Assembly: GCA_038087875.1 (NCBI GenBank)
Contig: CM075988.1
Coordinates: forward strand, 21,454,001 to 21,518,000
Source of the DNA: Malacoraja senta
Taxonomy: Eukaryota
DNA: 64,000 nt
Reading direction: 5' to 3'
Positions 995-63,649 of this stretch are shown here, in pieces (position 1 is the stretch's first letter; every line of letters begins with the position of its first letter). A program made the translations under genes and the position numbers. Under the pieces are notes generated by a model. It ran no database searches. It had not been told where the DNA came from and saw only the letters and a list, made by a program, of their open reading frames with translations.

Positions 995-1636
995 GGGCGG
1001 CACGGTGGCACAGCGGTAGAGTTGCTGCCTTAAAGGCCTGTCTCACGAGTCTGCGGTCATTGGCGGCGAAACGGGAAGAATCTGCCGCCATAGACCGCGC
1101 ACTCGTGAGAACGCACAATTCCGGGGCCGTGTGGCGGTGTTCCCAACACCGCACGGTGCTAAAATAAAACCTACACTGTTGAAAAATATTTTCCTACCGC
1201 ACAACCTCCACCAGTGATGCACGAGTGCCGCACGGCCGCCCGCACGGCCGCCGCCAGTGTGGCTCGAGCGCCGTGCGTCAAACCTCCACTGCCACAGCCT
1301 CCGCCAGTGAGGCACGTGTGCGGCACGGCTGCAGGCACAGCCACCGCTACAGCGCCGCGATCAGGACGGCCGCCGCCACAGCCGCCGCTAGTGAGTCACG
1401 TGCGGCGGGCCGACGTCATCGCAGTCGGCCCGCCCTTTTTTTACTTACCGCAAGCACGTGGGACCAGCCGTATTTGAATCACTCGGACCCCGCGCAGCAT
1501 CCGTGCGGCGCTTCCGTGGATAGGCTCGGCGCTCTCGCCATTGCCGTGCGGTCCACTCTACAGGCGAAGCCGCGCTTCACCGCCGATGACCGCAAACACG
1601 TAAGACAGAGCCTTTACAGAGCCAGGGATTCGATCT
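995..1636 (+). mobile_element. HE1-type SINE head interrupted by a MITE
   Basis: GGGCGGCACGGTGGCACAGCGGTAGAGTTGCTGCC-TTA resumes as TTA-CAGAGCCAGGGA after 1613. Confidence 0.8.
1033..1613. mobile_element. PIF/Harbinger-like MITE, internal type A
   Basis: Imperfect TIRs AAGGCCTGTCTCACG / CGTAAGACAGAGCCT, TTA TSD at 1030-1032 and 1614-1616; second copy inverted at 42869-43568. Confidence 0.8.
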
Positions 1637-7047: not shown

Positions 7048-7256
7048 CAGATAGACACAAAATGCTGGAGTAACTCAGCGGGACAAGCAGCATCTCTGGA
7101 GAGAAGGAATGGGTGACGTTTCAGACCAGAAGAATGGCCTTGACCTGAAACGTCACCCATTCCTTCCCTCCAGAGATGCTGCCTGACCCGCTGAGTTACT
7201 CCAGCATTTTGCGTCTACCTTTGGTGTTAAACAGCAGTTGCAGTTCCTTCCTGCAC
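7048..7256. mobile_element. Palindromic short Penelope-derived element
   Basis: GACACAAAATGCTGGAGTAACTCAGCGGG...GGGTGACGTTTC followed by its own inverted copy. Confidence 0.7.
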
Positions 7257-10156: not shown

Positions 10157-10770
10157 TGTGTAGGAAGGAACTGCAGATGCTGGTTTAAACTGAAGATAGA
10201 CACAAAAAGCTGGAGTAACTCTGCGGTTCAGGCAGCATCTCTGGAAAAACGAATAGGTGATGTTTCGGATCGAGGACCTTCTTCAGACTGAGTCAGGGGA
10301 AAGGGAAACAAGAGATATAGACAGCGATGTAGAGGAACATAGAACAAATGAATGAAAGATATGCAAAAAAGTAATGATGATAAAGGAAACAGGCCATTGT
10401 TAGCTGTGGCTTGGGTGAAAACGAGGTCAGACAATGAGACTCAACAAGACGCCTTTGAAGCTGGTACGACTTGGCTGGGGGAGGGATGGAGAGAGGGGGG
10501 ATGCAAGGGTTACTTGAAGTTAAGGGCCTGTCCCATTTGGGCGTCATTTGCGCGTCACGCAGGTGGCGAGCGAAGATTTTGTGAATCCCAAAATCCTGGG
10601 GCGCCGCGTGCGACCGAGCGTCACTGCCTACGTCACCACGCACCATGCACGCGTAATGCACGCATCACGTGCGCGTCACGACACGTGCGTCATGACGCGT
10701 AAATGATGTCGTGTAAATGACGCGCAAATGACTCCCAAGTGGGACAGGCCCTTTAGAGAAATCAATATTC
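10157..10770 (-). mobile_element. Penelope-like element 3' end interrupted by a MITE
   Basis: Reverse complement of ORF end (NIDFSNFK*) plus long UTR and hammerhead-like core at about 10261-10287. Confidence 0.7.
10523..10752. mobile_element. PIF/Harbinger-like MITE, internal type B
   Basis: TIR AGGGCCTGTCCCA / TGGGACAGGCCCT extended by GTCATTTGCGCGTCA / TGACGCGCAAATGAC; TTA TSD at 10520-10522 and 10753-10755; empty site GAAG-TTA-GAGAA seen at about 24535. Confidence 0.85.
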
Positions 10771-15759: not shown

Positions 15760-15944
15760 GGTAGACAAAAGTGCTGGAGAAACTCAGCGGGTGCAGCAGC
15801 ATCTATGGAGCAAAGGAAATAGGCAACGTTTCGGTCCGAAACGTTGCCTATTTCCTTCGCTCCATAGATGCTGCTGCACCCGCTGAGTTTCTCCAGCACT
15901 TTTGTCTACCTTCGATTTTCCAGCCTCTGCAGTTCCTTCTTAAA
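15760..15944. mobile_element. Short Penelope-derived element, subfamily 2, near-perfect 151-bp palindrome
   Basis: 15760-15910 is self-complementary with one arm mismatch; flanking duplication CATCTGCAGTTCCTT at 15745-15759 and 15945-15959. Confidence 0.8.
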
Positions 15945-16950
15945 CATCTGCAGTTCCTTCCTACACACGGAACTAGAGACCTCTCCGTTTGGAGATTTAG
16001 CGCAGCAATTAAAGATATCCACCTATCGAGACTCACAATGGGAATCCACAACCTATAATGCAGCTTAATGTAGACGCTGGAGAACTCGGAACAATTTGAT
16101 CGGTTTCAAATTTTCACCGCTCCAATTTGCATTGGATCGCAGTAACCAGAGTCTGTAGGGATTAGGTTAGCGGAGTTGTAGCTGGTCCAAAGGATCACTA
16201 CACAGTGGGTGGATGATAATGAGCCATGATTAATCTCACGTCTTGATTAGGGAATGTGATTGGGATTTTGGTTCCTACTGAGAATGGCAATTGTACGGAG
16301 GAAGTGCGAAGCAGATATTTGAATGGTAATACCGCAGAGACGAGCTCTTGTAATCTCAGAGCCTTTATTGGTTTTACAGAGTGCATTTTGTATTGAGCAT
16401 AAAATGTTATAAAGGTCCACCACTATGTAAAGTTCGTAACTGACCTAAACAGAGAAAGATTTCCCCAATAATCCTACAATAGAGAAAGGGTTGTTGCAAT
16501 CTATTCCTGGTTTCGTGGAATACAAAGAAATCTTTGGTGGTAGAAGATAAAGTGCCCAAATTTGCATCATTATAAAGACCTTTACATCCACTTCCGTTTG
16601 TTTAAGAGAGTTTCTCGATCATGTAACCAACTCAGTAGACCAAAAGGTCATGATTTGGTGGATAGCGTTTCAATAATGATGTCCCAAATGCACATTCGAA
16701 ACTCCGTTTGTTAACACAGCTCCTTGAACAATCTGCAGGTGTTAAGTGCAGAAAACAGATACCACATCGAGGTTTTATCAACAGGTCAGAAACATAGAGA
16801 CATAGAAAATAGGTGCAAGAGCTAGCCATTCGGCCCTTCGAGCCAGTACCGCCATTTAATATGATCATGGCTGATCATCCTAAATCAGTACCCCGTTCCT
16901 GCTTTCTTCCCATATCCCTTGCTTCCGTTAACCCTAAGAACTAAATCTAA

Positions 16951-17243
16951 TAGCCCTGTCCCACAGTACGAGTTCATTCCAAGGGCTCTCCCGAGTTTGC
17001 CCTGATTCGAACTCGGAGATTTATGGTAATGGCCACTCGTCGGTACTCGGGGCTCTCGTGGACATTTTTCATCATGTTGAAAAATCTTCACGAGTCTTCC
17101 CGTGCTTACCTGCCGTTAGCGCTAAGAGACGTCCCCGAGCTCCGACGTACCCGCTACGTTCATTCTCCGTGCTTACCACGAGTTTGATTTTTTTTAAACT
17201 CGGGAGAGCTCTTGGAATGAACTCGTACCGTGGGACAGGGCTT
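16951..17243. mobile_element. PIF/Harbinger-like MITE, internal type C, inside a CR1 3' end (16788-16950)
   Basis: Long TIR AGCCCTGTCCCAC.GTACGAGTTCATTCCAAG.GCTCTCCCGAGTTT; flanks TAA / AAA. Confidence 0.8.
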
Positions 17244-17592
17244 AAACTCTCTCTCTCTGTTCACTTGTGTGGGCATTGAAAATTAACTTCTATGTTTTAA
17301 TTTTGTTTACTTAAGGAACCTTTTCATTTCCAGACTTGCATTTCCATATAATTTCCTCTCAGGGGTGCTTCCCATGCACATACTTAATTAGCTTGAATGG
17401 TAGTGAAGTTCGGCAAACACAGCAGCCATGTTGTGTGAAGCAAGGAGACGCAAGGAGATAAATGGCTGCTTAATAAGCCAGGCTCATTCAACTTGGAGTG
17501 CAGGGATGTGAGCACTGAAGTACATTAGCATGACTCTGCTCTGAAGAATCAGAGGATATCTTATCAAAGACACTTCTCAGCACACTTTGAGT

Positions 17593-21972: not shown

Positions 21973-22321
21973 TCCGCGCCGACCAACCATCCCCGCACAC
22001 TAACACTATCCAACTCACACTACAATTTTACCGAAGCCAATTAACCTATAAACCTGAGATAGACACAAAAAGTTGGAGTAACTCAGCGGGACAGGCAGCA
22101 TCTCGGGAGAGAAGGACTGGGTGACGTTTCGAGTCGGGACCCTTCTTCACACTGGAGTGACCTGAAACGTCACCCATTCCTTCTCTCCATGGATGCTGCC
22201 TGTCCCGCTGAGTTACTCCAACTTTTTGTGTCTATCTCAGGTTTATAGGCTAATTGGCTTCGGTAAAATTGTAGTGTGTGTAGGATAGTGTTAGTGTGCG
22301 GGGAAGGTTGGTCGGCGCGGA
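21973..22321. repeat. Inverted duplication with about 158-bp arms (SINE piece plus Penelope-derived piece)
   Basis: 21973-22130 matches the reverse complement of 22164-22321 including private variants. Confidence 0.8.
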
Positions 22322-33114: not shown

Positions 33115-33404
33115 TTTCTCTTTTTTTGAATTTATTTTATTTGAAACAATTGTACAGGGATAAGACGATCGACATAACAGTTATACAATTATTGCACAGC
33201 TTCAGTTTTAACATTGCAACCTAATTTTTTTTTTAAAGGATAAAAAAGGAAAAAAAGAGAGAAATAAGAAGAGAATGAAGAATAATAAGTAAAATAAGAG
33301 CAAGAAAAAAGACCCCTAAGCTACCAAAGAAGTGCAAGAGAAAAGAAAAGAAATAAGAAAAGAGAAGATGGAAATATACCTTACCGTACCGTGGGACAGG
33401 GCTT
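33115..33404 (-). mobile_element. Probable L1-like 3' UTR fragment followed by an orphan type C MITE end
   Basis: T-tract with TTTATT then purine-rich tract resembling 61767-62150 in composition; CGTACCGTGGGACAGGGCTT at about 33385-33404. Confidence 0.4.
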
Positions 33405-33637
33405 TAACCATGACCTCAGCAACCCTGATCTTCTATGGACTTTGTTTTGATTGCACTGAGGACTTTGCTGTTGCACTATTATGGTGTGGTTACTGAGAAT
33501 TACTGGTTATCAATGTATTGTATTATTGATTATTGTGTAACATATTTGTTGCGTGGTTACGTTTATGGAGAGAGAGATATAGGCTCTTTGGGGCCCACCA
33601 AGTCCACAACGAACCAGCGATCACCCCCATACACTAA

Positions 33638-33967
33638 AACCCCTGTCCCACGGTACGAGTTCATTCCAAGCGTTCTCCCGAGTTTGCCCTGATTCGAACT
33701 CGGAGATTTACGGTAATGGCCGCTCGTCGGTACTCGGGGCTCTCGTGGACATTCATCATCATGTTGAAAAATCTTCACCAGTCTTCCCGTGCTTACCTGC
33801 CATTAGCGAGTCTTCCCGAGTACCTGCCGTTAGCGTTACGAGCCGCTAAGGGACGTCCCCAAGCTCCGACGTACCCGCTACGTTCATTCTCCGTGCTTAC
33901 CACGAGTTTGATTTTTTTAAAACTCGGGAGAGCTCTTGGAATGAACTCGCACCGTGGGACAGGGCTT
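33638..33967. mobile_element. PIF/Harbinger-like MITE, type C, inside a minus-strand SINE
   Basis: AACCCCTGTCCCAC / GTGGGACAGGGCTT; flanks TAA (33635-33637) and TTA (33968-33970). Confidence 0.85.
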
Positions 33968-34924
33968 TTACACTATCCTACACACTTGGGACAATTTACA
34001 ATTTTTAGCAAGTATACAAACACAAGCCAATTAACCTACAAACCAGCACGTCTTTGGAGTGTGGGAGGAAACCGGAGCACCCGGAGAAAGCCCACGCCAT
34101 CACAGGGAGAACATATAAACCGTACAGACAGCACCCGAGGCCATGATCGAACGTGGGCCGAGGTACCTGTTCCCACGCTGTATGGCTTTATGGGTCTATG
34201 ACTCTAGGTTTGTAGGCTAATTGCCAATGGTAAACTTGTAAATTGTCCCCCCTGTCTGGGATAGAACGAGTGCACAAGTTGAACGCTGGTTGGCGTGGAC
34301 TCGTTGGGCTAAAGGGCCTGTTTCTGCAGCATGTCCCTAGTTTAAAGTCATGATCTTATTGAATGCAGAGAAAGCTCAAAGGGCTGATTGTCCGTCTCCT
34401 GCTCCTGCTTCTTATGTTCTTAATACTGTAGGACCTCACCGTGACTAGATTTTCAGTGTGACAGTGCTTTCTGCCGATAGTTTTCAGCTGAGCTTGCTGG
34501 AGTCAGTATGTTGACCCATTATCGAGCAGCTTGTGGCAGTAACGATTTGCATTTCAATGCGCTGGCTGTCATCAATACCACTGCATGAAGGCGCAAGAAA
34601 CTGCCGACACTGGAATCTTGGGCAATATCACAAATTGCTGGAGGAACTCAGCGGGTCAGGCAGCATCTGTGGAGGGAGTGGACAGGTGATGTTTCAGGTT
34701 GGGATTCTTACTTTAGTTCAGTTTAGTTTAGTCTAGAGATACAGCACGGAAGCAGGCCCTTCAGCCCACCGAATCCGCACCGACCAGTGATCCCCGCTCG
34801 AAAACACTACCCTGCACACACTAGGGACAATTTACATTTATACCAAGCCAATTAACCTGCAAACCTGTACGTCTTTGGAGTGTGGGAGGAAACTGAAGAT
34901 CTCAGAGAAAACCCACGCAGGTCA

Positions 34925-37720: not shown

Positions 37721-38876
37721 TCTGGGTAAAAGACTCTGCATCCGCACTATCTATTTTCCTCCTGATGTTATACACCTCTATAAGTTCACCCCTCATCCTC
37801 CTGCACTTCAAGGAATAAAGTCCTTTCCTGCCTGACCCCGACCGCTCCCTGTAGCTCAGAATCTCAAGTGCAACCAACATCTTCATAAATCTTCTCTGCA
37901 CTCTTTCCAGCTCAACAACATCCTTCCTATAGCACGGTGAACAAAACTGGATGCAATACTCCAATGTCTTGCACAACTGTAACATAACATCTCAACTATT
38001 CTCTTGGAGATATACTGTGGAAAAAGGCCCTTCTTCAGCCCACCAAGTCTGTGTCGACACAACGATCACCTGTACACCAGTTACATAGAAACATAGAAAA
38101 TAGGTGCAGGAGGAGGTCATTCGGCCCTTCGAGCCAGCACCGCCATTCATTGCGATCATGGCTGATCATCCCCAATCAGTACCCCGTTCCTGCCTTCTCC
38201 CCATATCCCCTGACTCCGCTATTTTTAAGAGCCCTATCTAGCTCTCTCTTGAAAGCATCCAGAGAACCTGCCTCCACCGCCCTCTGAGGCAGAGAATTCC
38301 ACAGACTCACCACTCTCTGTGAGAAAAAGTGTTTCCTCGTCTCCGTTCTAAATGGCTTACTCCTTATTCTTAAACTGTGGCCCCTGGTTCTGGACTTCCC
38401 CAACATCGGGAACATGTTTCCTGCCTCTAGCGAGTCCAAACCCTTAACAATCTGGTATGGCGTGCACAGCCTAATGTTGCAAGACCACTTGTTCTGTTTG
38501 ATCTTGCGTTTGTGCACGCCGGGTTGATTGCATTTGTCGAAGCAGAGCGGACCACGTGAAGGTTGCAATCTCCCACCCCCGTTACTGGTCTGGGCATTGC
38601 TTTCAGCAAAACCAAACCAGGCATTGCATTTACGGTGGAGACACAAGGAACTGCAGATGCTGGAATCCTGAGCAAAACACAAAGTGCTGGAGGAACTCAG
38701 TGGGTCAGGCAGCATCTGTGGAGGGAATGGACACATCAGTCTGAAGAAGGGTCGCCTGCCAATTCGCTCCACGGATGCTGCCTGACCCACTTGGTTCCTC
38801 CGGGAATTTTTGTCTTTTGCTTGGCATTGTTTAGTTAATGCATTTCTCTGAAAGATTTGCCAATTGTCAGAACTTA

Positions 38877-39422
38877 AGGGCCTGTCCCACCAGCATGCGA
38901 TTGCGTGTGTCAAGCACGACCAAACGTGGTGGCTTGAGGCGTACGGCCTCGCGGGGCCGGTCCGACTTCAAACCGCGGAGCCGTATGGAGTTGTGCGGGG
39001 CTAGTCCCGACATCATACTCACCAATCAGCTGGGCAGGAGGCGGGCCGACTGAATTTGGACGTCGCACGGCGTCGGGCAGTTACGTCATCACGCAACGGC
39101 ATGCCGGGAGGTGACGTCAACACGCAACGCCACGCGCTAGGCGTGCGCCATCAAGACGCTGCGTTCAGCGTCAAGATGCTGTGTACGGCGTTGAGGCAGT
39201 GCGTACGGCCTCAATGCGGCAGCGGGCCGGCAGGCCTTTGCCGCGCAGAATTTCTGAACACTGTCAGTTTTTCAGAGCCCCGCGCGATGTCGGGACCAGC
39301 TCCGCACAACTCCATGCGGCTCCGGCGATCGAAGTGGGACCGGCCCGCGAGGCCGCACGGCTAGCGCGGCCACGTTTGGTCGCGCTAGCCGCATGTAGTC
39401 GCATGCTCGTGGGGCAGGCCCT
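38877..39422. mobile_element. PIF/Harbinger-like MITE, type D, with about 137-bp imperfect inverted ends
   Basis: AGGGCCTGTCCCAC / GTGGGGCAGGCCCT, TTA TSD at 38874-38876 and 39423-39425. Confidence 0.85.
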
Positions 39423-41332
39423 TTATTTTGAAATTATATTACTATACCTTCCAAATTGCGGGAATGCAACAAATCCGGAAACTGTAAGCGAAGGCATTTC
39501 TTGTGAAGTTGCATGTCAAAGTGTATTAAGAAATAGATGTCACCTGTTCTGATGTAGCACGCCTACATGCCTCAATCCTTGCTCACAAGCTCACAGTATG
39601 CCTGAGAAAACTTGATAACAGGCTGGAGAGAAGCAAATGTCAGGGTTTGGAGAAGGTGTTACTGATTCCTTGTCTGACCCACTTATCCTCAGTTGGGCAG
39701 GAGCCCAACATTGATGAATTTGCCTTTCGCGATACATCTCTGAAATGGTGCCAGGTTCTCATGGGTTTACCTTATGCTTCATCTGCCCCTTCCCTCCACA
39801 ACGCTCCTGCCCCCAACCAGAGCCAACAGCTGTAAAAGCCTCGTCTTGAATATCTAAAGATGTTTCAGGAAATGAGAGAGGTGAAGCAAGCTCTCACATC
39901 GGTTTTCAACCACAACATGCTTGGAGGCGCAATTAAACTGAGTCAGGATCCACACGTGAAGGAAATCAAAGAATCAAAAGCTTTATCAGAAATCCCCTGG
40001 TTTACACCAGTGCTAAAGCCCCTTTAGATGATTTTCAGTGCTGCAATGCATTTCCTGATAAGAGTTTGGCTTACTGTCTGCCTTCACTCTGAGCGGCCCA
40101 AAGACCATGTGAGTCCGTTATTCTGAAATAAATCTGCAGTTGTCCAACATTAAGGGTAATACTTAGATTAGGCCTTCTTCCCATTGATGCTGTTCACATT
40201 ACAAGCTTCGAAACTTGAAAGAATATCGAATAACAAGAGGCTGAAGAAGGGTCTCGACCCGAAACGTTACCCATTCCTTCCCTCCAGAGATGCTGCCTGT
40301 CTCATTGGGTTACTCCAGCTTTTTGTGTCAACCTTCGAATAAAAATAATTCTGGAATGGAGTTGGTTGTTGGGGAAACTTTATGAGGAGTGCTCTCCTTC
40401 TCCAGAGTTCACTTGCATTAGACGGTCAAATATGTGAACTAAATAGTGGCAGCACAATAGCCCTGCGGTAGAGTTACTGCTTTACAGCGCCAGAGACCCG
40501 TGCTTGATCCTGACCACGGATGCTGTCTGTATGGAGTTTGTACGTTCTCCCCGTGACCGCGTGGGTTTTCTCCGGGTGCTCAGAGAAAACCCACGCAGGT
40601 CACAGGGAGAACGTACAAACTCCGTACAGACAGCACCCATGGTCAGGATTGAACTCAGGACTCTGGAGCTGTGAGGCAGCAAGTTTGCTGCTGCACCACC
40701 GTATCAACCCTATTGATAAAGGTTTTTGAAAATGTCCCAATTTTTATTCTTGCCATTAATTTTAATTTATTGCTCCCCCTTCTTCGAAACCTAGGTCGAA
40801 GAGAGGAATTCTTCTGAATCCCTCGAGCACGTGTTGGTCAATCTCAGATCCTCCTGGGAGCAAACCTTCTTTCATAGCAATGCTAATCTCTGCATTGATC
40901 ATCAGAGTTTACCACCCTTGGGGCGCGGCACGGTGGTGCAGCGGTAGAGTTGCTGCCTCACAGCGCCAGAGACGCAGACTACCGGTTTAGTTGAGTTTAG
41001 AGATACAGCACGGAAAAAGGTTCTTCCGACCAGCGATCCCCACACAGGTTGATGCTATCCTACTCACACTAGGGACAACTTACACTTATATCGAGCCAAT
41101 TAACCTACAAACCTGGACGTCTTTGGAGTGCGGGAGGAAACCAAAGAAAACGGAGAAAACCCACGAGGTCACGGGGAGAACGGACAAACTCCGTACAGAC
41201 AGCACCCGTAGTCGGGAACGAACCTGGGTCTCCGGCGCTGTAAAGGGGTAACAGAGAAACTCCGCTGTAACAGAGAAACTCCGTACAGATATCAGGGCAG
41301 CACAGTGGCGCAGTGGTTGAGTTGCTGCCTTA

Positions 41333-41763
41333 AGGGGCTGTCCCACTGCGGCAACCTAATCCGTGAGTTCAGAAGAGTTTGCTCTTGACTCATACTCGCA
41401 GCATGGTCGACACGAGGTCCTAGGAGGTCTTTGTAACTCTCCTTCATGCTCGAGAGTGGTCCCCGCGTACTCGAGGCCTCAGCTAGGTCGCGCCGTATTT
41501 TTCAACATGCTGAAAAATACCCGCGAGTAAAAAAAGGTCGCCATGGAAAAAATCGATATATTTTTTACTCCTAGGTTTAGTCGAGGTAGGTCGTAGTAGG
41601 TCGGCATGTTATTCGTAGGTAATCGAGGGTAGTCGAAGGTAATCGAAGGTAGTCGTAGATAGTCTTCAACATAGTCGAAGGAGGTCTTCAACATGACACT
41701 TTTTCAAACTCTCCTAAACTCTTCTAAAGTCGCCAATTAGGTCACCGCAGTGGGACAGCCCCT
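41333..41763. mobile_element. PIF/Harbinger-like MITE, type E
   Basis: AGGGGCTGTCCCACTGCGG / CCGCAGTGGGACAGCCCCT; internal GTAGTCGAAG-like repeats. Confidence 0.85.
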
Positions 41764-42221
41764 TAAGGCAGCAACTCAACCACTGCGCCACTGTGCTGCC
41801 CTAATATCTGTACGGAGTTTCTCTGTTCTCCCCGTGACCGCGTAGGTTTTCCCTGGGTGTTCCGGTCTCCTCCCGCACTCCAAAGACGTGCAGATTTGTC
41901 AGTTAATTGGCTTCAGTAAAATTCTAAATTATCTTTAGCGTGTAGGATAGTGTTAGTGTATGGGGACCGCTGGTGGCTGAAGGGTCTGTTTCCTTGCTGT
42001 ATCTCTAAAGTCTAAAGTTTAAAGTCTCCACACAAGAATACAAGAAAATAGGACCCTCAGTCTGATGAAGGGTCTCGACCCGAAACCTTACCTATTCCTC
42101 TTCTCCAGAGGTGCTGCCTGACCCGCTGAGTTACTCCAGCATTTTTTGTCTATCTTCGAGAAGTGGCACGGTGGCACAGCGGTAGAGTTGCTGCCTTTCA
42201 GCACTGGCAGAGGCAGAGACC

Positions 42222-42532: not shown

Positions 42533-42868
42533 TTACAGAATAATGAAAGGCATAGATAGAGTGGATGTGAAAAGGATGTTTCCACTGGTGGGAGAGTCTA
42601 GGACCAGAGGTCACAGCCTCAGAATTAAAGGTGAGGAGGAACTTCTTTAGTCAGAGGGTGGTGAATCTGTGGAACTCATTGCCACAGAGGGCTGTGGAGG
42701 CCAAGGCAGTGGATATTTTTAAGACAGAGATAGAATTTTTTTTTATTAGAACGGGTGGCTAGTGTTATGGGGAGAAGGCAGGAGAATGGGATTAGGAGGC
42801 AGAGATCAGCCATGATTGAATGGCGGAGCGGACTTGATGGGCCGAATGGCCTAATTCTACTACTGTAA

Positions 42869-43568
42869 AGGCTCTGTCTCACGGTGTTGCGGTCATCGGC
42901 GGTGAAGCGCGGCTTCGCCTGTAGAGTGGACCGCACGGCAACGGCGGAGAGCGCCGAGCCTATGCCACGGGAGCGCCGCTCGGATGCTGCGCGGGGGCCG
43001 AGTGATTTAAATACGGCTGGTCCCACGAGCTTGCGGCCAGTAAAAAAAAGGGCGGGCCGACTGCGATGACGTCATTTTGGATCTGCGGGGCTGTTGGCGG
43101 CGGCCGTCCTGATCGCGGCGCTGTAGCGGTGGCTGTGCGGCGGCCGTGCCGCACACATGACTCACTAGCGGCGGCTGTGGCGGCGGCTGTGCTGATCGCG
43201 GCGCTGTAGCGGTGGCTGTGCCGGCGGTCGTGCCGCACACGTGCCTCACTGGCGGAGGCTGTGGCGGTGCAAGTTCGACGCACGGCGCTCGAGCCACACT
43301 GGCGGCGTCTGTGGCGGCGGCCGTGCGATTCGCGGCGCTGTAGCGGTGGCTGTGGCGGCGGCCGTGCCGCACTCGTGCCTCACTGGCGGAGGCTGTGCGG
43401 TAGGGACATATTTTTGAACAGTGTTGGTTTTATTTTAGCACCGTGCGGTGTTGGGAACAACGGCCCCGGAATTGTGCGTTTGACCGAGTGCGCGGTCTAT
43501 GGCGGCCCAGGAGCAGTAGATTCTTCCTGTTTCGCCGCCAATGACCGCAGACTCGTGAGACAGGCCTT
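42869..43568. mobile_element. PIF/Harbinger-like MITE, type A, in the tail of a CR1 (42536-42868)
   Basis: Reverse-orientation homologue of 1033-1613 with extra internal repeat units; flanks TAA / TTA. Confidence 0.85.
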
Positions 43569-53040: not shown

Positions 53041-53664
53041 ACAATGTGTTGGTTACATTCACTTCACCGGTGCTGCCTGACCTTCTGAGTTCCTCCAGCT
53101 CCTTTTGTTTTGCCCAATCGAGTGACACGATTGTCCCTGTACATTGTGTTTCACTGCCAGAGGTTGATTCCATCAAAATTAACAGGGTCTAATGCCATGC
53201 CCAGTTAGTTCTTCATCATGCAGCTGCTGCTCCTGATCAGAAGATATATTTATCTCCACATCATAAAAAGAATTAATATCTATGTAGCCACAGCAATAAA
53301 GTTGATTTAAACTCGCGATGCTGCCTGCAGGCATTTAGGACGTGCTGCCTGATCTGACTTTTGAAAAAGCAATCGGTGTTTGTGCCACATCTTCAGCCTG
53401 TAAACCTCTGCGTTTCCCATCTCCCTGTGGTATCTCTCACGTGGTTGCAAAGCTAATAATGAAATCAGCTTTTTGGGCTTAGCTATTCCACCAGGCCCTG
53501 TTCAGAGTAGAAAGATAGGAGCAGAGGTAGTCTATTTAGCCCATTGAGCCACTCTGCCGGTAAATATGATCACAGCTGATCTTCTAATACAGTACCCCGT
53601 TCCTGCTCTCCCCTAAAAGCCCTCAATGCCCTGCGGTCCAGAAAGTTATCAGTCCCCTTCTTTA

Positions 53665-54003
53665 TGGCCCTGTCCCACGTGGTACGAGTTCATTCCAAGA
53701 GCTCTCCCGAGTTTGCCCTGATTCGAACTCGGAGATTTACGGTAATGGCCGCTCGTCGGTACTCGAGGCTCCCGTGGACATTTTTCAACATGTTGAAAAA
53801 TCTTCACGAGTCTTCCCGAGCTTACCTGCCATAAGCGAGTACCGAGTCTTCCCGAGTACCTGCCGTTAGCATTACGAGCCGCTAAAAGACATCCCCGAGC
53901 TCCGACGTACCCGCTACGTTCATTCACCGTGCTTACCACGAGTTTGATTTATTTTAAACTCGGGAGAGCTCTTGGAATGAACTCGTACCGTGGGACAGGG
54001 CCA
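53665..54003. mobile_element. PIF/Harbinger-like MITE, type C
   Basis: TGGCCCTGTCCCAC / GTGGGACAGGGCCA; flanks TTA (53662-53664) and TAA (54004-54006). Confidence 0.85.
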
Positions 54004-54362
54004 TAAGTTTAGTGTAATTTTAGAGATACAGCACGGAAACAGGCCCTCTGGCCCACCGAGTCCGCGCCAACCAGCGATCACCGCACATTAACACTATCCT
54101 GCACACATTATGGACAATTTACAACGATGCCAAGCCAATCAACCTACCAGCCTGCACGTCTTTGTAATGTGGGAGGAAACCGGAGATCCCGGAGAAAAAT
54201 CCACGCAGGTCACGGGGATAACGTACAAACGCTGTACAGACAAACGGCGGTCGTCAGGATTGAACCCGGGTCCCTGGCGCTGTAAGGCAGCAACTCTACC
54301 CACTGCGCCATCTTCAGGTTTAGTTTATTATTGTCACGTGTATTGAGGTACAGGGACAAGCA

Positions 54363-54512: not shown

Positions 54513-54849
54513 GTGGATGTAATGTAAACACAAAACTATCACCGACAGCTTATCCAGACAGGAAGCAATTACAATAACTCATTTGCCTGTCCATTCTGAA
54601 AGTACGTTCTAGGAATTGGCAGTGTTCTGGTGAAAAACAAGTATAGAAATGAAGAAGGGTTTCTACCCGAAACGTTGCCTATTTCCTTCGCTCCATAGAT
54701 GCTGCTGCACCCGCTGAGTTTCTCCAGCATTTTTGTGTACCCAGAAATGAATGAAGACAGACACAAAAAGCTGGGGTGACTCAGAAGGCCAGGCAGCATC
54801 TCTGGAGAGAAGGAATCTGTGACGTTTTGGGTCGAGACCCTCCTCGAGT

Positions 54850-54877
54850 CTGAAGAAGGGTCTCGACCCGAAACGTC
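54850..54877 (+). ncRNA. Minimal type I hammerhead ribozyme-like motif (representative copy)
   Basis: CUGAAGA-A-GGGU(CUCG)ACCC-GAAAC-GUC: catalytic core boxes, stem II hairpin, palindromic ACGU stem III, GUC triplet; stem I only about 2 bp. Confidence 0.55.
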
Positions 54878-56809
54878 ACCCGTTCCTTCTCTCCAGAGAC
54901 GCTGCCTGTCCCGCTGAGTCACTCCAGCCTTTTGTGTCCGTCTTTGGTTTAAACCAGCATCTGCAGTTCCTTCCTACAGATAGAAATTAACGATGAAGCC
55001 CACAGATGCTGAGTGATGGCATCTCCTTCAGAGAGAATGTTTTCTTCAAAGTGACACTGTTGAAGCAATTGTTTTTCTAACCACAGCAACACAGGGCATT
55101 TTACTGAGAATTCATGTTCCTGTGGAAAGATTTCGCTTATAGTCACGGCTGCATCACCATTCCTCTCACTCAGTCCTGTCAGTGGTGCCTATTAAGAAGG
55201 ATTCCACTTTACATTACAAATGTGTTGCAGTTTTTGGATGTAGTTTAGTTTGCTTTAGTTCGTTCCAGAGATACAGCATGGTGGAAGGCCCTTCTGCCCG
55301 CCGAGTCCGTGCTGTCCGCTCTAGTTCCATGTTATCCCACTCCTGCATCCCACACACTAGCAATCAAGTTTTCAGTGAAAGGTAAATGGAAATTGCCACC
55401 ACATGCAACATTGTAGTACAGTGACATGATCCCAAGGAATGACCCGCTGTGTTTAGTTTCCTTCGGTTTAGTTTAGAGATACAGCACGGAAACAGTCCCT
55501 TCGGCCCACCGAGCCCGCGCCGACCAGCGATCCCCGCGCACTAACATTATCCTACATTTCTGCGAGACTGTCCCTGAATCTGGAGGTGTGTGTTTTCACA
55601 CTCCTTACATCCTTTGCCTGATGGGAGAGGGGAGAAGAGGGAGTGGCCGGGGTGCGACTCATCCTTGAATATGCTGCTTGATTGGACCTTGCCGGGGCAG
55701 CGTGAGGTATAAATGGAGTCAATGGAAGGGAGGTTGGTTTGTAGTGATGGTCTGGGCTACGTCCACAGGATGCAGTCGATGTGGGGGGAAGCTACTTGGC
55801 ATGGACTCACTTCTGCAATTCACCATTAAATGGGAGATTTCACCAATCTCCATCCAACTATGAAGACATAGAAACATAGAAACATAGAAAATAGGTGCAG
55901 GAGTAGGCCATTCGGCCCTTCGAGCCTGCACCGCCATTCAATATGATCATGGCTGATCATCCAACTCAGTATCCCGTACCTGCCTTCTCTCCATACCCTC
56001 TGATCCCTTTAGCCACAAGGGCCACATCTAACTCCCTCTTAAATATAGCCAATGAACTGGCCTCGACTACCCTCTGTGGCAATCTACACCTTTCAATATT
56101 TCAGCAAGCAAGTTACGTTTGAGTGTTCGCAGCCTTTGAAGGAAGAAGGTGATAGAATCTTGATGTCGAAGATACATTTCATTTACATATGGAAATTGGT
56201 AATTAGGTACCACACTCTTTAATAATAATCAGCCAAATGGATGTCATTTTGTCAGGTAAAAGTACAGTTTCATCATATCAGTGTGTCATTTGACTTTTCT
56301 ACAGATGTAAAATTACAAATTAACATTGCGCTTAATTGATGGCAGTGTTATTAACTTGTCAGGAAGCAGTAAAAACAGAAAGAGGTAACATTCTCCCCTT
56401 GTGGTTTATTGAGAATAAAGTAACCGAGACAGCGGATGTGTGTCAGACTGTCATTAAATCGTGAGAGAATGTTGATGGAATTGGAACCGTGCGTGTGGGC
56501 TGAGTAAATGGATTCATCAAGCAGGTATCACAGTCCGCAGCTGGTGGAGCTGCTGCCTCCCAGCGGCAGAGACCCAAGTTCGATCATCACCTCCGGTGTT
56601 ATCTATGTGGAGTCTTCACGTTTTCCCCTGCGCTCCGGTCTCCTCCCATATCCCAAAGACGTGCAGCATTGTAGGCTGGTTGGTCACTGTAAATTACTCC
56701 TAGTATGTAAGGAGTGGATGCAAAAGTGGGATAATAGAACCGGTGTAAACAGGTGGTCAGCATGGACTCGGTGGGCCGAAGGGCCCGTTTCCATGCTGGA
56801 TCTTTCTTT

Positions 56810-59059: not shown

Positions 59060-59225
59060 ACCCAATCCTTCTCTCCAGAGATGCTGCCTGTCCCGCTGAG
59101 TTACTCCAGCTTTTTGTATTTATCTACCGATGGCTCAATGTCTTTCCACTATCTACCAGTCAGGAGCCTGATGGGATACTCTCCACTTACCTTGTGGAGT
59201 GCACGCTCACTGCCAAGAAGCTTAA

Positions 59226-59770
59226 TGCCCCTGTCCCAGGCGACTAGGCTGTCGCCACATGGTGTCGCCTGTATGGCCGTGAGTAGTCTCCTCAGTCGCC
59301 CAAAGAATCGTAGCATTTTTCTGGTCGTCGCTGGATTTTGAAATGTTTAAAACTTTTCAGCGACAGTCGGCGACAGTTGGCTTGACGCCAATGTGCGTAG
59401 CTTGACTTCTCCTGACGTAGGTGCTGTCGTAGGTTGTCACCAGGATGACGTAGGTTGTCTCCGGTGCTGACTTCGGTGAATTCCATTGGCGACTACCTAC
59501 GTCAACCTACATCAACCGGCGACAGGTACCGGCGACTGAATTGTCTTAACTTGTCGCAGGTGGACGTAGGTTGTCGTAGGTGTGATCGTAGGTGGACGTT
59601 CTAATGGGTCGCCGGTTGTCGGTAGCTTGCCGTAGCTGGACGTTGACTAGGTGGTAGGTTGTCGTAGACATTGTCGTAGGGGGGTCCAGTCACCGTTTTT
59701 TCGGCGACCTGCTACGACTATGACAGTCGCCGGCAGTCGCTGAAAAGATCGCCTAAGTGGGACAGGCCCT
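59226..59770. mobile_element. PIF/Harbinger-like MITE, type F
   Basis: TGCCCCTGTCCCA / TGGGACAGGCCCT; flanks TAA / CAA; internal GTCGTAGGTT-like repeats. Confidence 0.75.
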
Positions 59771-60219
59771 CAACACACTAAATATTCAAACCTCCTGGTA
59801 ATCATGTCTTGTCTTTCCGCTGACTGGATAGCATGCAACAAAAGCTTTTCACTGTACCTCGCTACACGTGACAATGAACTAAACTGTGCATGGATCATCA
59901 CCAACATCAAAATCCCTTTAAATTGGACACCATTCTCGCTTGGAGATATATCACTATTCCTTCATTTTTGCTGAATTAAAATCCTACAACTCCCTACTTA
60001 ACATAGAAACACACAAAATAGGTGCAGGAGTAGGCCATTCAGCCCTTCGTGGCAGCATCGCCATTCAATATGATCATGGCCGATCATCCAAAATCAGTAC
60101 CCCTTTCCTGCTTTCTCCTCATATCCTTTGATTCCATTAGCCCTAAGAGCTATATCTCTCTCTTGAACACATCATTAATGGCACTAAAGGGCAGCAGTGG
60201 TTCAAGAATGTGGCTCTCC

Positions 60220-60311: not shown

Positions 60312-60853
60312 TTGTTGTTGCCATAGGGCAACAATGGGCCTGGCTCACCCGCCGCAGAACCGGGTACCCGCCTGTAGAGGGAGCCGCCGAGCCTGGCTTC
60401 TCCTCACCCCCAAGGATGGAACAAGAGGGCTGGTGAGAAGAACCAGGGTCTTCTGAGGAAGGGTCTCGACCAGAAACGTCGCCCATTCCTTTTCTCTCCA
60501 GAAACGCTGCCTGTCCTGCTGAGTTACCTGTTGGTCTATGGTGTAAACCAGCATCTGCAGTTCCTTGCTGCACCCAGGGTCTGACCTTCCGCGCCTTCAA
60601 GGTGGTCCGTGGGAGGTGCCCCCCCCCCCCACCCACCCCGGGGATCAAAGACTGAAGCATGGAAGGGCGCGGAGAGGCACGACGGATCCCAGGACGATCT
60701 GGCCGGAGATGACGGCTGCAATGGGCCTTTATGGCCAGCTGCAGCTGGGACTTTAAAGATGGTGCCAAAACCTGGTGACTCTTGTATATGGACTCAATGG
60801 GCTATTTCTATACATTCTGCACTTAGAATGGGGATTGTAGTTTAGTTTATTAA

Positions 60854-61321
60854 AGGGCCTGTCCCATGAGCATGCGGCAAGCGTGACCTAACGCGGTCGC
60901 TTGAGCTGTGCCGCCTCGCGGGGCCGGTCCCACTTCGATCGCCGGAGCCGTATGGAGTTGTGCGGAGCTGGTCCCGACATCGCGCGGGGCTCCGAAAAAC
61001 TGACACTGTTCAAAATTCCGCACGGCAACGGCCTGCCGGCCCGCAGCCGCATTGAGGCCTTATGCACCGCCTCGACGGGCGTGCGCAGCGTCTCGACGCC
61101 GTACGCAACTTCCCGCGGACTTCGCTCGAACTTCACGTCAACTCGTACGGGATCACTCGACCTCCGCGCGGCCCCCGCTTCTGGTTTGGTCGCGCTCGCC
61201 GCATGCAGTCGCATGCTGGTGGGACCGGCCCTGTACGGGGATCACTCGACCTCCGCGCGGCCCCCGCTTCCGGTTTGGTCGCGCTTGCCGCATGCAGTTG
61301 CATGCTCGTGGGACAGGCCCT
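60854..61321. mobile_element. PIF/Harbinger-like MITE, type D variant with duplicated right end
   Basis: AGGGCCTGTCCCA / TGGGACAGGCCCT; flanks TAA (60851-60853) and TTA (61322-61324). Confidence 0.85.
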
Positions 61322-61766
61322 TTAGTCTAGAGATACAGCGCGGAATCCTCGTCATCCAGCGATCCCCACACATCAACACTATCCTACACTAGTCACATTA
61401 ACACTATCCTATCCTGCTGTCTTCCTGCCCACTAGTTGGCACACAACAAAAGCTTTTCACTGTACCTCGGTACACATGACAATAAACTAAACAAACCAAA
61501 TGAACTACAAACCTGTACGTCTTTGGAGTGTGGGGGGGGGGGGGGGGGGAGCTGAAGATCTCAGAGAAAAGCCACGCAGGTCAAGGGGAGAACGTACAAA
61601 CTCCGTGCAGACAAGCGCCAGGAATCGGGATCGAACCCGGGTCTCTGGCGCTGTGAGTCAGCAACTCTACCGCTGTGCCACCGTGCCGCTGTACTTGTAC
61701 TTATGTACGCCAATAATCTTACTGAACTGTACGCAAAACAAAATAATTTCACTGTACCTTGATAAT

Positions 61767-62768
61767 TTTTTTTTTTTTTTTTTTTTAATTTTTATTTATT
61801 AGAAGTACATTACATCACAGCCACATACATTAATACTCGTCATTTATATCTTCTTACAATTAATGTACTCCCTTTATTTATTTTTTTTACACTAAAGAAA
61901 GAAAAGATTGAAAGAGAGAAGAAAGTGAAGGAAAAAGTGCAAGTGTAGAAAAGTGTAGAAAATGTAACAACAAAAAAAAAGGACGAGGACCCTATGAGAG
62001 CGAAATTAAAAACAAAAAGAAAAAGAGTTAAGAAATAGGCCCTAAGAAAAGAAAAGAGAGAGAGAAAAAAAGAAAAACAAATGTTTTTTTTTTTGAGCAT
62101 CACGTAAATAGGACATACCAACTCTTCAACTATCATCCCCCCTTACCCGACCTCAATTTTTTATTTTTTTAAAGTACTTTTGCACCCTATGTTTGTAATA
62201 ATTCTATAAATGCAGACCACGTCAGGTGGAAGTGATCTGGTTTACCTGCTAGGAGGAGTCTTATCTCTTCAAGGTGTAGTGTTTCAAACATATTTGAAAT
62301 CCACATATTTATAGTTGGTATTGGAGCCTTCTTCCAAAATTTTAGAATTAGCTTTTTTCCAGTTATTAACCCATAATCCATTAATTTCTTTTGAAACACA
62401 TTTAGTTCTGGATCATCTTCCGTTATTCCGAAGATAATCCATTCTGCTTTGGGTATCAGTCTTGTTTTAAATAACTTTGTAAAGATTTCAAAAATTTCAT
62501 TCCAAAATTTTTGAATTTTTGTACAGAAGACAAATGAGTGCGCTATAGTTGCTTCTTGGGATTGACATTTATCACAAATAGATGATACGTTTGGGAAAAT
62601 TTTATGAATTTTAGTTTTCGAATAATATAATCTATGTAAAATTTTAAATTGTATTAAAGTGTGTCTTACATTAATCGAGCATTTATGTACTTTTAATAAG
62701 TATTCATTCCAACTTTCCTTTGAAATTTTAATAGCTAACTCTTGTTCCCAGTCTCTTCTGATACCCTC
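61767..62768 (-). mobile_element. L1-clade LINE, 5'-truncated, recent insertion
   Basis: Poly(A) tail; perfect TSD CTGTACCTTGATAAT (61752-61766, 62769-62783); stop-free frame 62187-62768 with IQFKILHRLY and CDKC-x8-H-x4-C zinc knuckle. Confidence 0.9.
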
Positions 62769-63649
62769 CTGTACCTTGATAATAAAGAATCATTGAACCA
62801 TTGACAATGTTCTTGGCAATAACTAGATTTAAAAAAAAGTGAAATAATAGTAAACTCAGAGAGAGGGAGTACCCGAAATATCTACTCTCTATCTACAAAG
62901 TTTGAGTGAAAAAATCGATAAGAGAGTAAATAAATTAAGAGCAAACCAGGAAATATAAATAGCGTCAGGTTGGGGGGGATTGGTACAAGTCTCCAAAGGG
63001 GAAGCAATTAGTCTTCATGAATAAGGAACCCCAGAGGAGGACAGGGAACATTGCAGAGGAGAAAACAAAAAAGACAAGTTATATCAAGCAAATATCCTCT
63101 TTAGAGTGGAACACACTGATCATTCTGTAAATTGCAATGAGACAAATATTTGATGACCAATGAGATAATTAATAGCAAAGGAAAGATGCTAGAAGAACAT
63201 TAATGGACCTGATCACTGCTGTCCCTTGAACAAAATGCTGGAGTAACTCAGTAGGATCTTTTCTAAGCTCCTTGACCCCCATCTCTTTTGATGTCTTGTT
63301 TTCACACTTTACTCTTCCTTATCTTTGTGTCTCCCTCCCCCCCAGACTCTCAGTCTGAAGAAAGGTCTCGACTCAAAACATCGGCCGTTCCTTCCCTCCA
63401 GAGATGCTGCCTGTCCCGCTGAGTTACTCCAGCTGAGTTACTCCAGCATTCTGTGTCTATCTTCGGTGTAAACCAGCATCTGCAGTTCCTTCCATCCTAC
63501 ATTTCATCTGGCCTTTGTGCCTGATGCACTGCACAGAGTGAATCTCACCCGCTGAGTTTCTCCAGCATTTTTGTCTACCTTCGATTTTCCAGCATCTGCA
63601 GTTCCTTCTTAAACGTGAATCTAACAGCTGTATTTTCAGAAACAGTGCG

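What the first reader, a model, noticed from the sequence alone, without database searches (positions are those of the whole stretch)
33635..33970. Harbinger-like MITEs repeatedly have discordant TAA/TTA flanks instead of a true TSD
Seen: of ten complete insertions, four have identical flanks (1033, 10523, 38877 TTA/TTA; original 41244-41763 TAA/TAA), but four have the middle base flipped on one side: 33638 TAA/TTA, 42869 TAA/TTA, 53665 TTA/TAA, 60854 TAA/TTA. Two more differ at the first base (16951 TAA/AAA, 59226 TAA/CAA). Host-repeat consensus gives the empty site (CAC-TAA-CAC at 33635; TAA-CTTGTGAAC at 42866, compare 29359), so one flank was changed. Four A/T transversions at the same position seem unlikely by drift. 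Inference: the excised element may carry donor-derived 3-nt overhangs that form a heteroduplex at the target and are repaired independently (piggyBac-like), or hairpin template switching perfects the palindrome after insertion. I cannot confirm whether this is already described.
Basis: partly seen in the sequence, partly recalled or inferred. Interest (0 to 1): 0.7.

Follow-up and report, generated by a model that had tools for sequence, protein, structure and literature searches.

The report
Jumping genes with mismatched landing scars
Four of eight small jumping elements in this animal DNA carry a three-letter flank whose middle letter differs between the two sides, where identical copies are expected, likely because the element brought three letters along from its old site and the host did not always repair them away.

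Summary
Observation confirmed. Ten two-ended MITEs with 3-nt flanks lie in the window; of the 8 with T-W-A on both sides, 4 differ at the middle base (33638, 42869, 53665, 60854). Host-repeat copies give the empty site for 3 of these 4, so one flank was changed. Background A/T flips are 1-6% (P about 1e-4 to 1e-3). A grass Tourist family fetched as control shows 2 of 42 (Fisher p=0.004), so this is not a general PIF/Harbinger trait. Best reading (0.55, inferred): the excised element keeps donor 5' TWA overhangs, which mismatch half of all TWA targets and are fixed by replication or unbiased repair. Overhang carry is in print for mPing and asymmetric TSDs for piggyBac; routine discordance at canonical Harbinger sites was not found in my searches. 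Arm-to-arm template switching did occur once here (41244), but it does not fit 42869, which keeps its arm asymmetry. Limits: n=8, one window, no genome held, and the genome-wide count failed.

The parts
33635..33637 (+). Left flank TAA, equal to the host target
33638..33967 (.). Family B MITE, 330 bp, about 47-bp inverted arms; very high copy in four runs
33968..33970 (+). Right flank TTA, middle base changed against host TAA
42866..43571 (.). Family A MITE 42869-43568 with flanks TAA/TTA; target TAA; arms still differ at terminal positions 2, 4, 5
53662..54006 (.). Family B MITE 53665-54003 with flanks TTA/TAA; empty site not known
60851..61324 (.). Family C MITE 60854-61321 with flanks TAA/TTA; target TTA, left flank changed
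1030..1616 (.). Family A MITE 1033-1613, TTA/TTA, in a SINE-like host repeat; same arm asymmetry as 42869
10520..10755 (.). MITE 10523-10752, TTA/TTA; host TTA in 3 of 3 copies
38874..39425 (.). Family C MITE 38877-39422, TTA/TTA
41241..41766 (.). MITE 41244-41763, outer flanks TAA/TAA; left end holds an inverted copy of the right junction (41269-41380 = reverse complement of 41716-41827)
16948..17246 (.). Family B MITE 16951-17243, TAA/AAA; host TAA, first base of right flank changed
59223..59773 (.). MITE 59226-59770, TAA/CAA; empty site not known

Best explanation
These are non-coding Harbinger-like MITEs that insert at T-W-A, and in half of the scorable copies one flank likely comes from the donor site rather than from the target. 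Steps: (1, shown) the target is a T-W-A trinucleotide and three bases stand on each side of the element; (2, shown for mPing in the literature, inferred here) the transposase cuts the donor TSD staggered, so the element leaves with 3-nt 5' overhangs; (3, inferred) TAA and TTA are the same site on opposite strands, so about half of all insertions pair a donor overhang with a target strand that differs at the middle base (A:A or T:T); (4, inferred) the mismatch is fixed by replication or by repair without a bias to the target, giving TAA/TTA or TTA/TAA. Replication alone predicts 50% discordance, independent unbiased repair 33% at equilibrium; target-biased repair predicts near 0%, as in the grass control.
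For: 4 of 8 TWA/TWA copies discordant, 95% interval 16-84%, which holds both 33% and 50% and lies above backgrounds of 1.3-5.6%. The changed base is always the other W, in three families. One flank equals the host in the 3 of 4 cases with a known empty site. 42869 keeps three arm mismatches within 5 nt of the flank, the same three as its concordant sister 1033, so its flank was not copied from the opposite arm. Hairpin-forming grass Tourists of similar or greater divergence (median nearest neighbour 9%, 56 copies) show 2 of 42, so hairpins and age alone do not give the pattern. Precedent: staggered 5' cut in the TSD (PMC4561436, parts 2-4 of 5 read); donor TTA/TAA delivered with mPing (PMC11254759, passages); asymmetric piggyBac TSD by one-sided repair (PMC8717057, passages).
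Against: Small sample from one window, picked by eye. mPing with TCA/TCA donors gave 45 of 46 insertions at TTA or TAA in yeast, and PMC11254759 states that free transposition leaves an intact TSD: retention of donor bases is rare in those systems. The grass family duplicated non-canonical targets faithfully (19 identical non-TWA pairs of 86). So the model needs a host- or transposase-specific step for which I have no direct evidence. 16951 has a changed first base in a TAA target, so flanks here do mutate otherwise (2 of 20 outer-base pairs differ). Counting any middle-base difference among all two-ended elements, 4 of 10 against 16 of 86 is not significant (p=0.21); that set includes grass ends whose whole flank is unrelated. 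No transposase of these elements was found or tested.
Confidence: 0.55

Rival explanations
1. After insertion, a nascent strand folds back on the opposite arm, copies through its flank and returns, so the near-palindrome T-W-A...T-W-A is perfected (quasi-palindrome template switching).
For: The process is recorded in this window: at 41244 an inverted copy of the right junction sits in the left end, 63 of 64 flank bases identical, and makes a TTA...TAA inner junction. Both discordant types are exact palindromes. 53665 has identical arms over 14 nt, 60854 over 13. Homology ends at the outer flank base, so a switch would also stop there; the short tract does not decide between the models.
Against: 42869 keeps arm mismatches at positions 2, 4, 5 and 33638 at position 3. 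The one proven switch copied 64 nt of flank, not one base. Grass Tourists with matched arms show 2 of 42.
Confidence: 0.16
2. Ordinary mutation, raised at the border of a T run and an A run, plus choice of a striking window.
For: Every T-W-A flip moves a T/A run border; 16951 shows such a change at the first base; a T-run/A-run border inside family B varies strongly (33919-33920). The scan looked at very many windows.
Against: T-W-A sites in older host repeats of this window flip in 4.0% of pair-columns, 4.9% per site over 419 sites; P(4 or more of 8) 1.5e-4 to 3.3e-4. Third flank base differs in 0 of 10.
Confidence: 0.14
3. Gene conversion between dispersed copies of a family overwrites a junction up to the outer T, randomising the middle base.
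For: Family B is very abundant. It would leave arm asymmetry intact, as at 42869.
Against: 33638 keeps private bases against genome-wide majorities at 33671, 33754-33755, 33919 and 33950, the last 19 nt from the changed base; copies differ by 5-8%.
Confidence: 0.06
4. Boundary error: a TA duplication with 7-nt ends, a TTAA duplication (Kolobok or piggyBac type), or a variable stagger.
For: The three TAA/TTA copies parse as TA/TA with 7-nt ends; 53665 parses as TA duplicated inside TTAA; the terminal base of family B varies (T to A in 27-47% of depth at 33967).
Against: The TA parse fails for the other 5 of 8, including 1033, sister of 42869, and needs a lost base against the host at 33638 (1 of 24 copies gapped). 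A 4-nt duplication would leave an extra base against host copies at 1033, 10523 and 41244.
Confidence: 0.05
5. Assembly or polishing artefact: reads of other copies outvoted the middle base.
For: The window has a scaffold gap; no laid contig spanned this locus's own junction.
Against: The copy's private bases survive where 69-99% of laid depth reads otherwise.
Confidence: 0.04

Closest known systems
mPing / Tourist MITEs, PIF/Harbinger superfamily (Gilbert 2015 PMC4561436; Liu 2024 PMC11254759; Hancock 2010 PMC2836001)
   Same: Short non-coding element, inverted ends, TAA/TTA target, 3-nt flanks. Staggered TSD cut and carry of donor TTA/TAA are described there.
   Different: There, free insertions are said to have intact TSDs, and TCA donors gave 45 of 46 TWA insertions; non-matching TSDs were engineered, not found. 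Here 4 of 8 natural copies are discordant.
piggyBac at non-canonical sites (PMC8717057, passages; it cites Li 2013, which was not held)
   Same: One flank of donor type and one of target type, explained by one-sided repair of a mismatch.
   Different: TTAA is its own reverse complement, so mismatch arises only at the about 2% non-canonical sites. T-W-A has an odd length, so a mismatch would arise at about half of the canonical sites.
Grass Tourist-type MITE family in assembly Ga0182004
   Same: 3-nt flanks, mostly TAA or TTA, inverted ends, 230-250 bp.
   Different: 59 of 86 flank pairs identical, 40 of 42 among TWA/TWA; non-canonical targets copied on both sides in 19.
Quasi-palindrome template-switch mutagenesis (recalled, no paper read)
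   Same: Turns near-palindromes into perfect ones; seen at 41244.
   Different: Should also even out arm mismatches next to the flank, which persist at 42869.

Membership tests
PIF/Harbinger (Tourist-like) MITE | T-W-A target with three bases on each side of the element | tested here: met
   Empty-site comparison at 1033, 10523, 33638, 41244, 60854, 42869 and 16951
PIF/Harbinger (Tourist-like) MITE | The two 3-bp flanks are identical (true TSD) | tested here: inconclusive
   Identical in 4 of 10, middle base differs in 4, first base in 2
PIF/Harbinger (Tourist-like) MITE | Terminal inverted repeats around a short non-coding body | tested here: met
   Arms match at 10-14 of 14 terminal bases; 230-700 bp; no Pfam family in the ORFs scanned over six of the elements
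PIF/Harbinger (Tourist-like) MITE | Autonomous partner with the same ends encoding a DDE transposase and a Myb/SANT protein | not testable with these tools
   No genome held; 30 of 50 window ORFs scanned gave no transposase family
PIF/Harbinger (Tourist-like) MITE | Extended target preference beyond the 3 bp (PMC2836001) | tested here: inconclusive
piggyBac or Kolobok non-autonomous element | 4-bp TTAA duplication (recalled) | tested here: not met
   A 4-nt parse leaves an extra base against host copies and gives unequal flanks
Tc1/mariner (Stowaway-like) MITE | TA duplication | tested here: not met
   Fails for 5 of 8 TWA/TWA copies
Overhang-carrying transposition (piggyBac/mPing type) | Excised element bears donor-derived overhangs | not testable with these tools
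   Needs a transposase assay; inferred from flank pattern and from PMC4561436 and PMC11254759

The most novel reading that the evidence does not exclude
In this vertebrate lineage Harbinger MITEs routinely write donor bases into the genome: a third to a half of all insertions at canonical sites end with one donor-derived flank, so the TSD is a fossil record of unrepaired germline heteroduplex, and each jump followed by excision can flip a TAA to TTA. Tens of thousands of copies would make it a natural assay of cleavage polarity and repair bias that plants do not offer.
Probability: 0.45. Interest if true: 0.6.

Novelty: new variant of a known kind. Interest (0 to 1): 0.42.

Why it matters
If it holds genome-wide, it is natural evidence in an animal for the staggered-overhang mechanism proposed for mPing, with an outcome opposite to yeast and grass. 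MITE finders that demand identical TSDs would miss or misdate up to half of such copies (inference). Non-matching TSDs lower precise repair after mPing excision (PMC4561436), so discordant copies would be predicted to leave point changes or footprints, against the view of Harbinger as scarless.

Tried and rejected
No whole genome is held. Genome-wide count of the middle base at a SINE-MITE junction: the 48-base stretch returned no base table; in that call the family A interior (1050-1053) was covered only in X18, not in X1, X3, X4, which is no proof of absence. Laying contigs on 33560-34040 gave family-wide variation and host joins but no left-right pairs and no contig of this locus's own junction. 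Window-type ends in public collections: 0 in metagenomes, 0 in prokaryote genomes, 0 junctions in viral contigs; 4 viral matches to a short degenerate end were taken as chance and not examined. A first SINE baseline caught only 10 copies (TCA 6, TTA 3, TCC 1). Pfam on 30 of 50 ORFs: one weak zf-RVT hit below cut-off. Literature: searches gave 0 papers; some searches gave listings, none with a title or abstract start on discordant natural Harbinger TSDs. PMC3733837, PMC8151067 and PMC4786924 (passages) added nothing on this; the C. inopinata preprint (passages) reports TWA logos only, and its closed supplements may hold flank tables. Earlier scan notes: 0 on this topic. Rejected as an argument: that the palindrome stops at the outer flank base, since both main models predict it.

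Full report
What is there. The window is repeat-rich, non-coding animal DNA (47% GC, one 200-N gap). An earlier scan note calls this genome a skate's (e1-8584256; not tested). Ten elements of 230-700 bp have inverted ends made of six variable bases and a shared TGTCYCA core. Three families have more than one copy: A (1033, 42869), B (16951, 33638, 53665), C (38877, 60854 and the orphan end 42532).

Boundaries. Rebuilt empty sites were compared with other copies of the host repeats. Removing the element and three bases restores the host at 10523 (TTA, 3 of 3), 1033 (TCA 7, TTA 4, TAA 1, TTT 1 of 13), 41244 (same site, other strand), 33638 (TAA 13, TAG 4, TTA 0 of 24) and 60854 (TTA 5 of 7, 2 gapped). 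For 42869 four spanning copies read GAA or TCA and two more read TAA; none reads TTA. Contigs from four runs join the 33638 host as TAA or TAG (table 7). A TA parse with 7-nt ends fits only the three TAA/TTA copies and fails for 5 of 8; a TTAA parse leaves an extra base. So the flank is three bases, and in 33638 and 42869 the right flank, in 60854 the left flank, departs from the target. 53665 and 59226 have no spanning host copy. 16951 lies in a TAA or TAG host (10 of 11 copies), so its AAA is a changed base and not a TWA donor.

Is it more than chance? A/T differences between MITE copies run 1.3% (family A), 2.1-5.6% (B) and 3.4% (C) per A/T column. In host repeats, which are more diverged, T-W-A flips its middle base in 65 of 1634 pair-columns (4.0%; pairs are not independent) or 4.9% per site over 419 sites. 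P(4 or more of 8) is 2e-6 to 6e-4. The finding was picked by eye, so these values overstate the case, but not by enough to remove it.

Outside control. No genome is held, and window-type ends were absent from three collections. A scan with a grass Tourist end motif (recalled; close to the consensus in PMC2631504, passages) returned 135 loci of one assembly, about 2 of 64 parts of the collection. Of 140 matches, 52 had no second end in the locus, 2 were duplicates, and 86 were two-ended. 59 had identical flanks, 19 of them non-TWA. Of 42 with TWA on both sides 2 were discordant, one being a composite (L017). Fisher p=0.004 against 4 of 8; with equal outer bases as the rule, 3 of 62, p=0.002. 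Counting any middle-base difference among all elements, 4 of 10 against 16 of 86 gives p=0.21, because that set holds grass ends with wholly unrelated flanks. The grass copies are not younger (median nearest-neighbour difference 9% among 56). It is one family in one plant, so it shows only that high discordance is not universal.

Mechanism. Gilbert 2015 (PMC4561436, parts 2-4 of 5 read) proposes that mPing is cut out by staggered cleavage of its TSDs with 5' overhangs. Liu 2024 (PMC11254759, passages) shows donor TTA/TAA arriving with mPing at Cas9 cuts. If such an element enters a T-W-A of the other polarity, each junction holds an A:A or T:T mismatch (inference). Replication without repair gives discordance in half of all insertions; independent unbiased repair gives a third at equilibrium; 4 of 8 fits both. 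piggyBac gives the precedent of an asymmetric TSD through one-sided repair (PMC8717057, passages). Against this: TCA-flanked mPing gave 45 of 46 TWA insertions in yeast, Liu states that free jumps leave an intact TSD, and the grass control agrees. The model therefore needs weaker target-biased repair in this host, or a different transposase; neither is shown. A variant in which one flank is always carried cannot be told apart with this sample.

Template switching. It did happen here: 41269-41380 is an inverted copy of 41716-41827, with 63 of 64 flank bases identical, inserted in the left end of the 41244 element. That event copied 64 bases of flank. For single-base perfection, a switch must start inside the arm and would even out mismatches near the end. 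42869 keeps mismatches at positions 2, 4 and 5, the same as its concordant sister 1033, and 33638 keeps one at position 3. 53665 and 60854 have matched ends and do not discriminate. Conversion between copies and polishing artefacts are weak, since 33638 keeps private bases against majorities of 69-99%.

What failed. The genome-wide count at the SINE junction returned no base table. It did show ends of at least three other MITE families joined to that same host site in four runs of four organisms (loose ends behind 1046-1049: 66, 70, 99 and 65 contigs for the commonest), which makes the site the best place for the decisive count.

Novelty. Searches for the phenomenon found no paper on routine discordant TSDs in natural Harbinger insertions; the library lacks most subscription papers and Repbase entries, and Li 2013 was not held. 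PMC2631504 remarks only that not all direct repeats of a rice PIF family were perfect. The mechanism is known, the frequency at canonical sites appears not to be. Verdict: real in this window, new variant of a known kind, interest 0.42, limited by n=8.

Noticed in passing
window 41244-41380 and 41716-41827: Templated inverted duplication at a MITE end: 64 nt of right flank plus the arm copied into the left end, preceded by a short repeat of its first 15 bases. Looks like repair of a break at one element end by fold-back synthesis.
   Followed up: partly
window 1030-1032 and 41241-41243: Two of ten MITEs sit at the same position of a SINE-like repeat; contigs of four runs show at least three further MITE families at this site. 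Insertion hot spot.
   Followed up: partly
window 33121-33407: Orphan family B right end of about 20 nt (ends 33404, flank TAA) joined to a T-run-headed, purine-rich stretch that may be the 3' end of a LINE on the minus strand; 230 nt from the 33638 element.
   Followed up: no
window 33966-33967; also 16951, 53665, 59226: The terminal base of family B varies between T and A (27-47% of laid depth); 53665 and 33638 have matching terminal bases at both ends, 16951 does not.
   Followed up: partly
window 21973-22321, 15760-15910, 54754-54944, 7049-7220: Long head-to-head inverted pairs of a very common short repeat, arms 75-163 nt, 87-99% complementary, 1-23 nt apart.
   Followed up: no
L099, L039, L120 and similar grass loci: Some grass Tourists have one canonical and one non-canonical flank differing at two bases (CCA/TTA, CTA/TAA, ATA/TAA); could be rare donor carry or nested insertions.
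   Followed up: no
window 62190-62789 (-): Weak zf-RVT match below cut-off, likely a LINE remnant.
   Followed up: no
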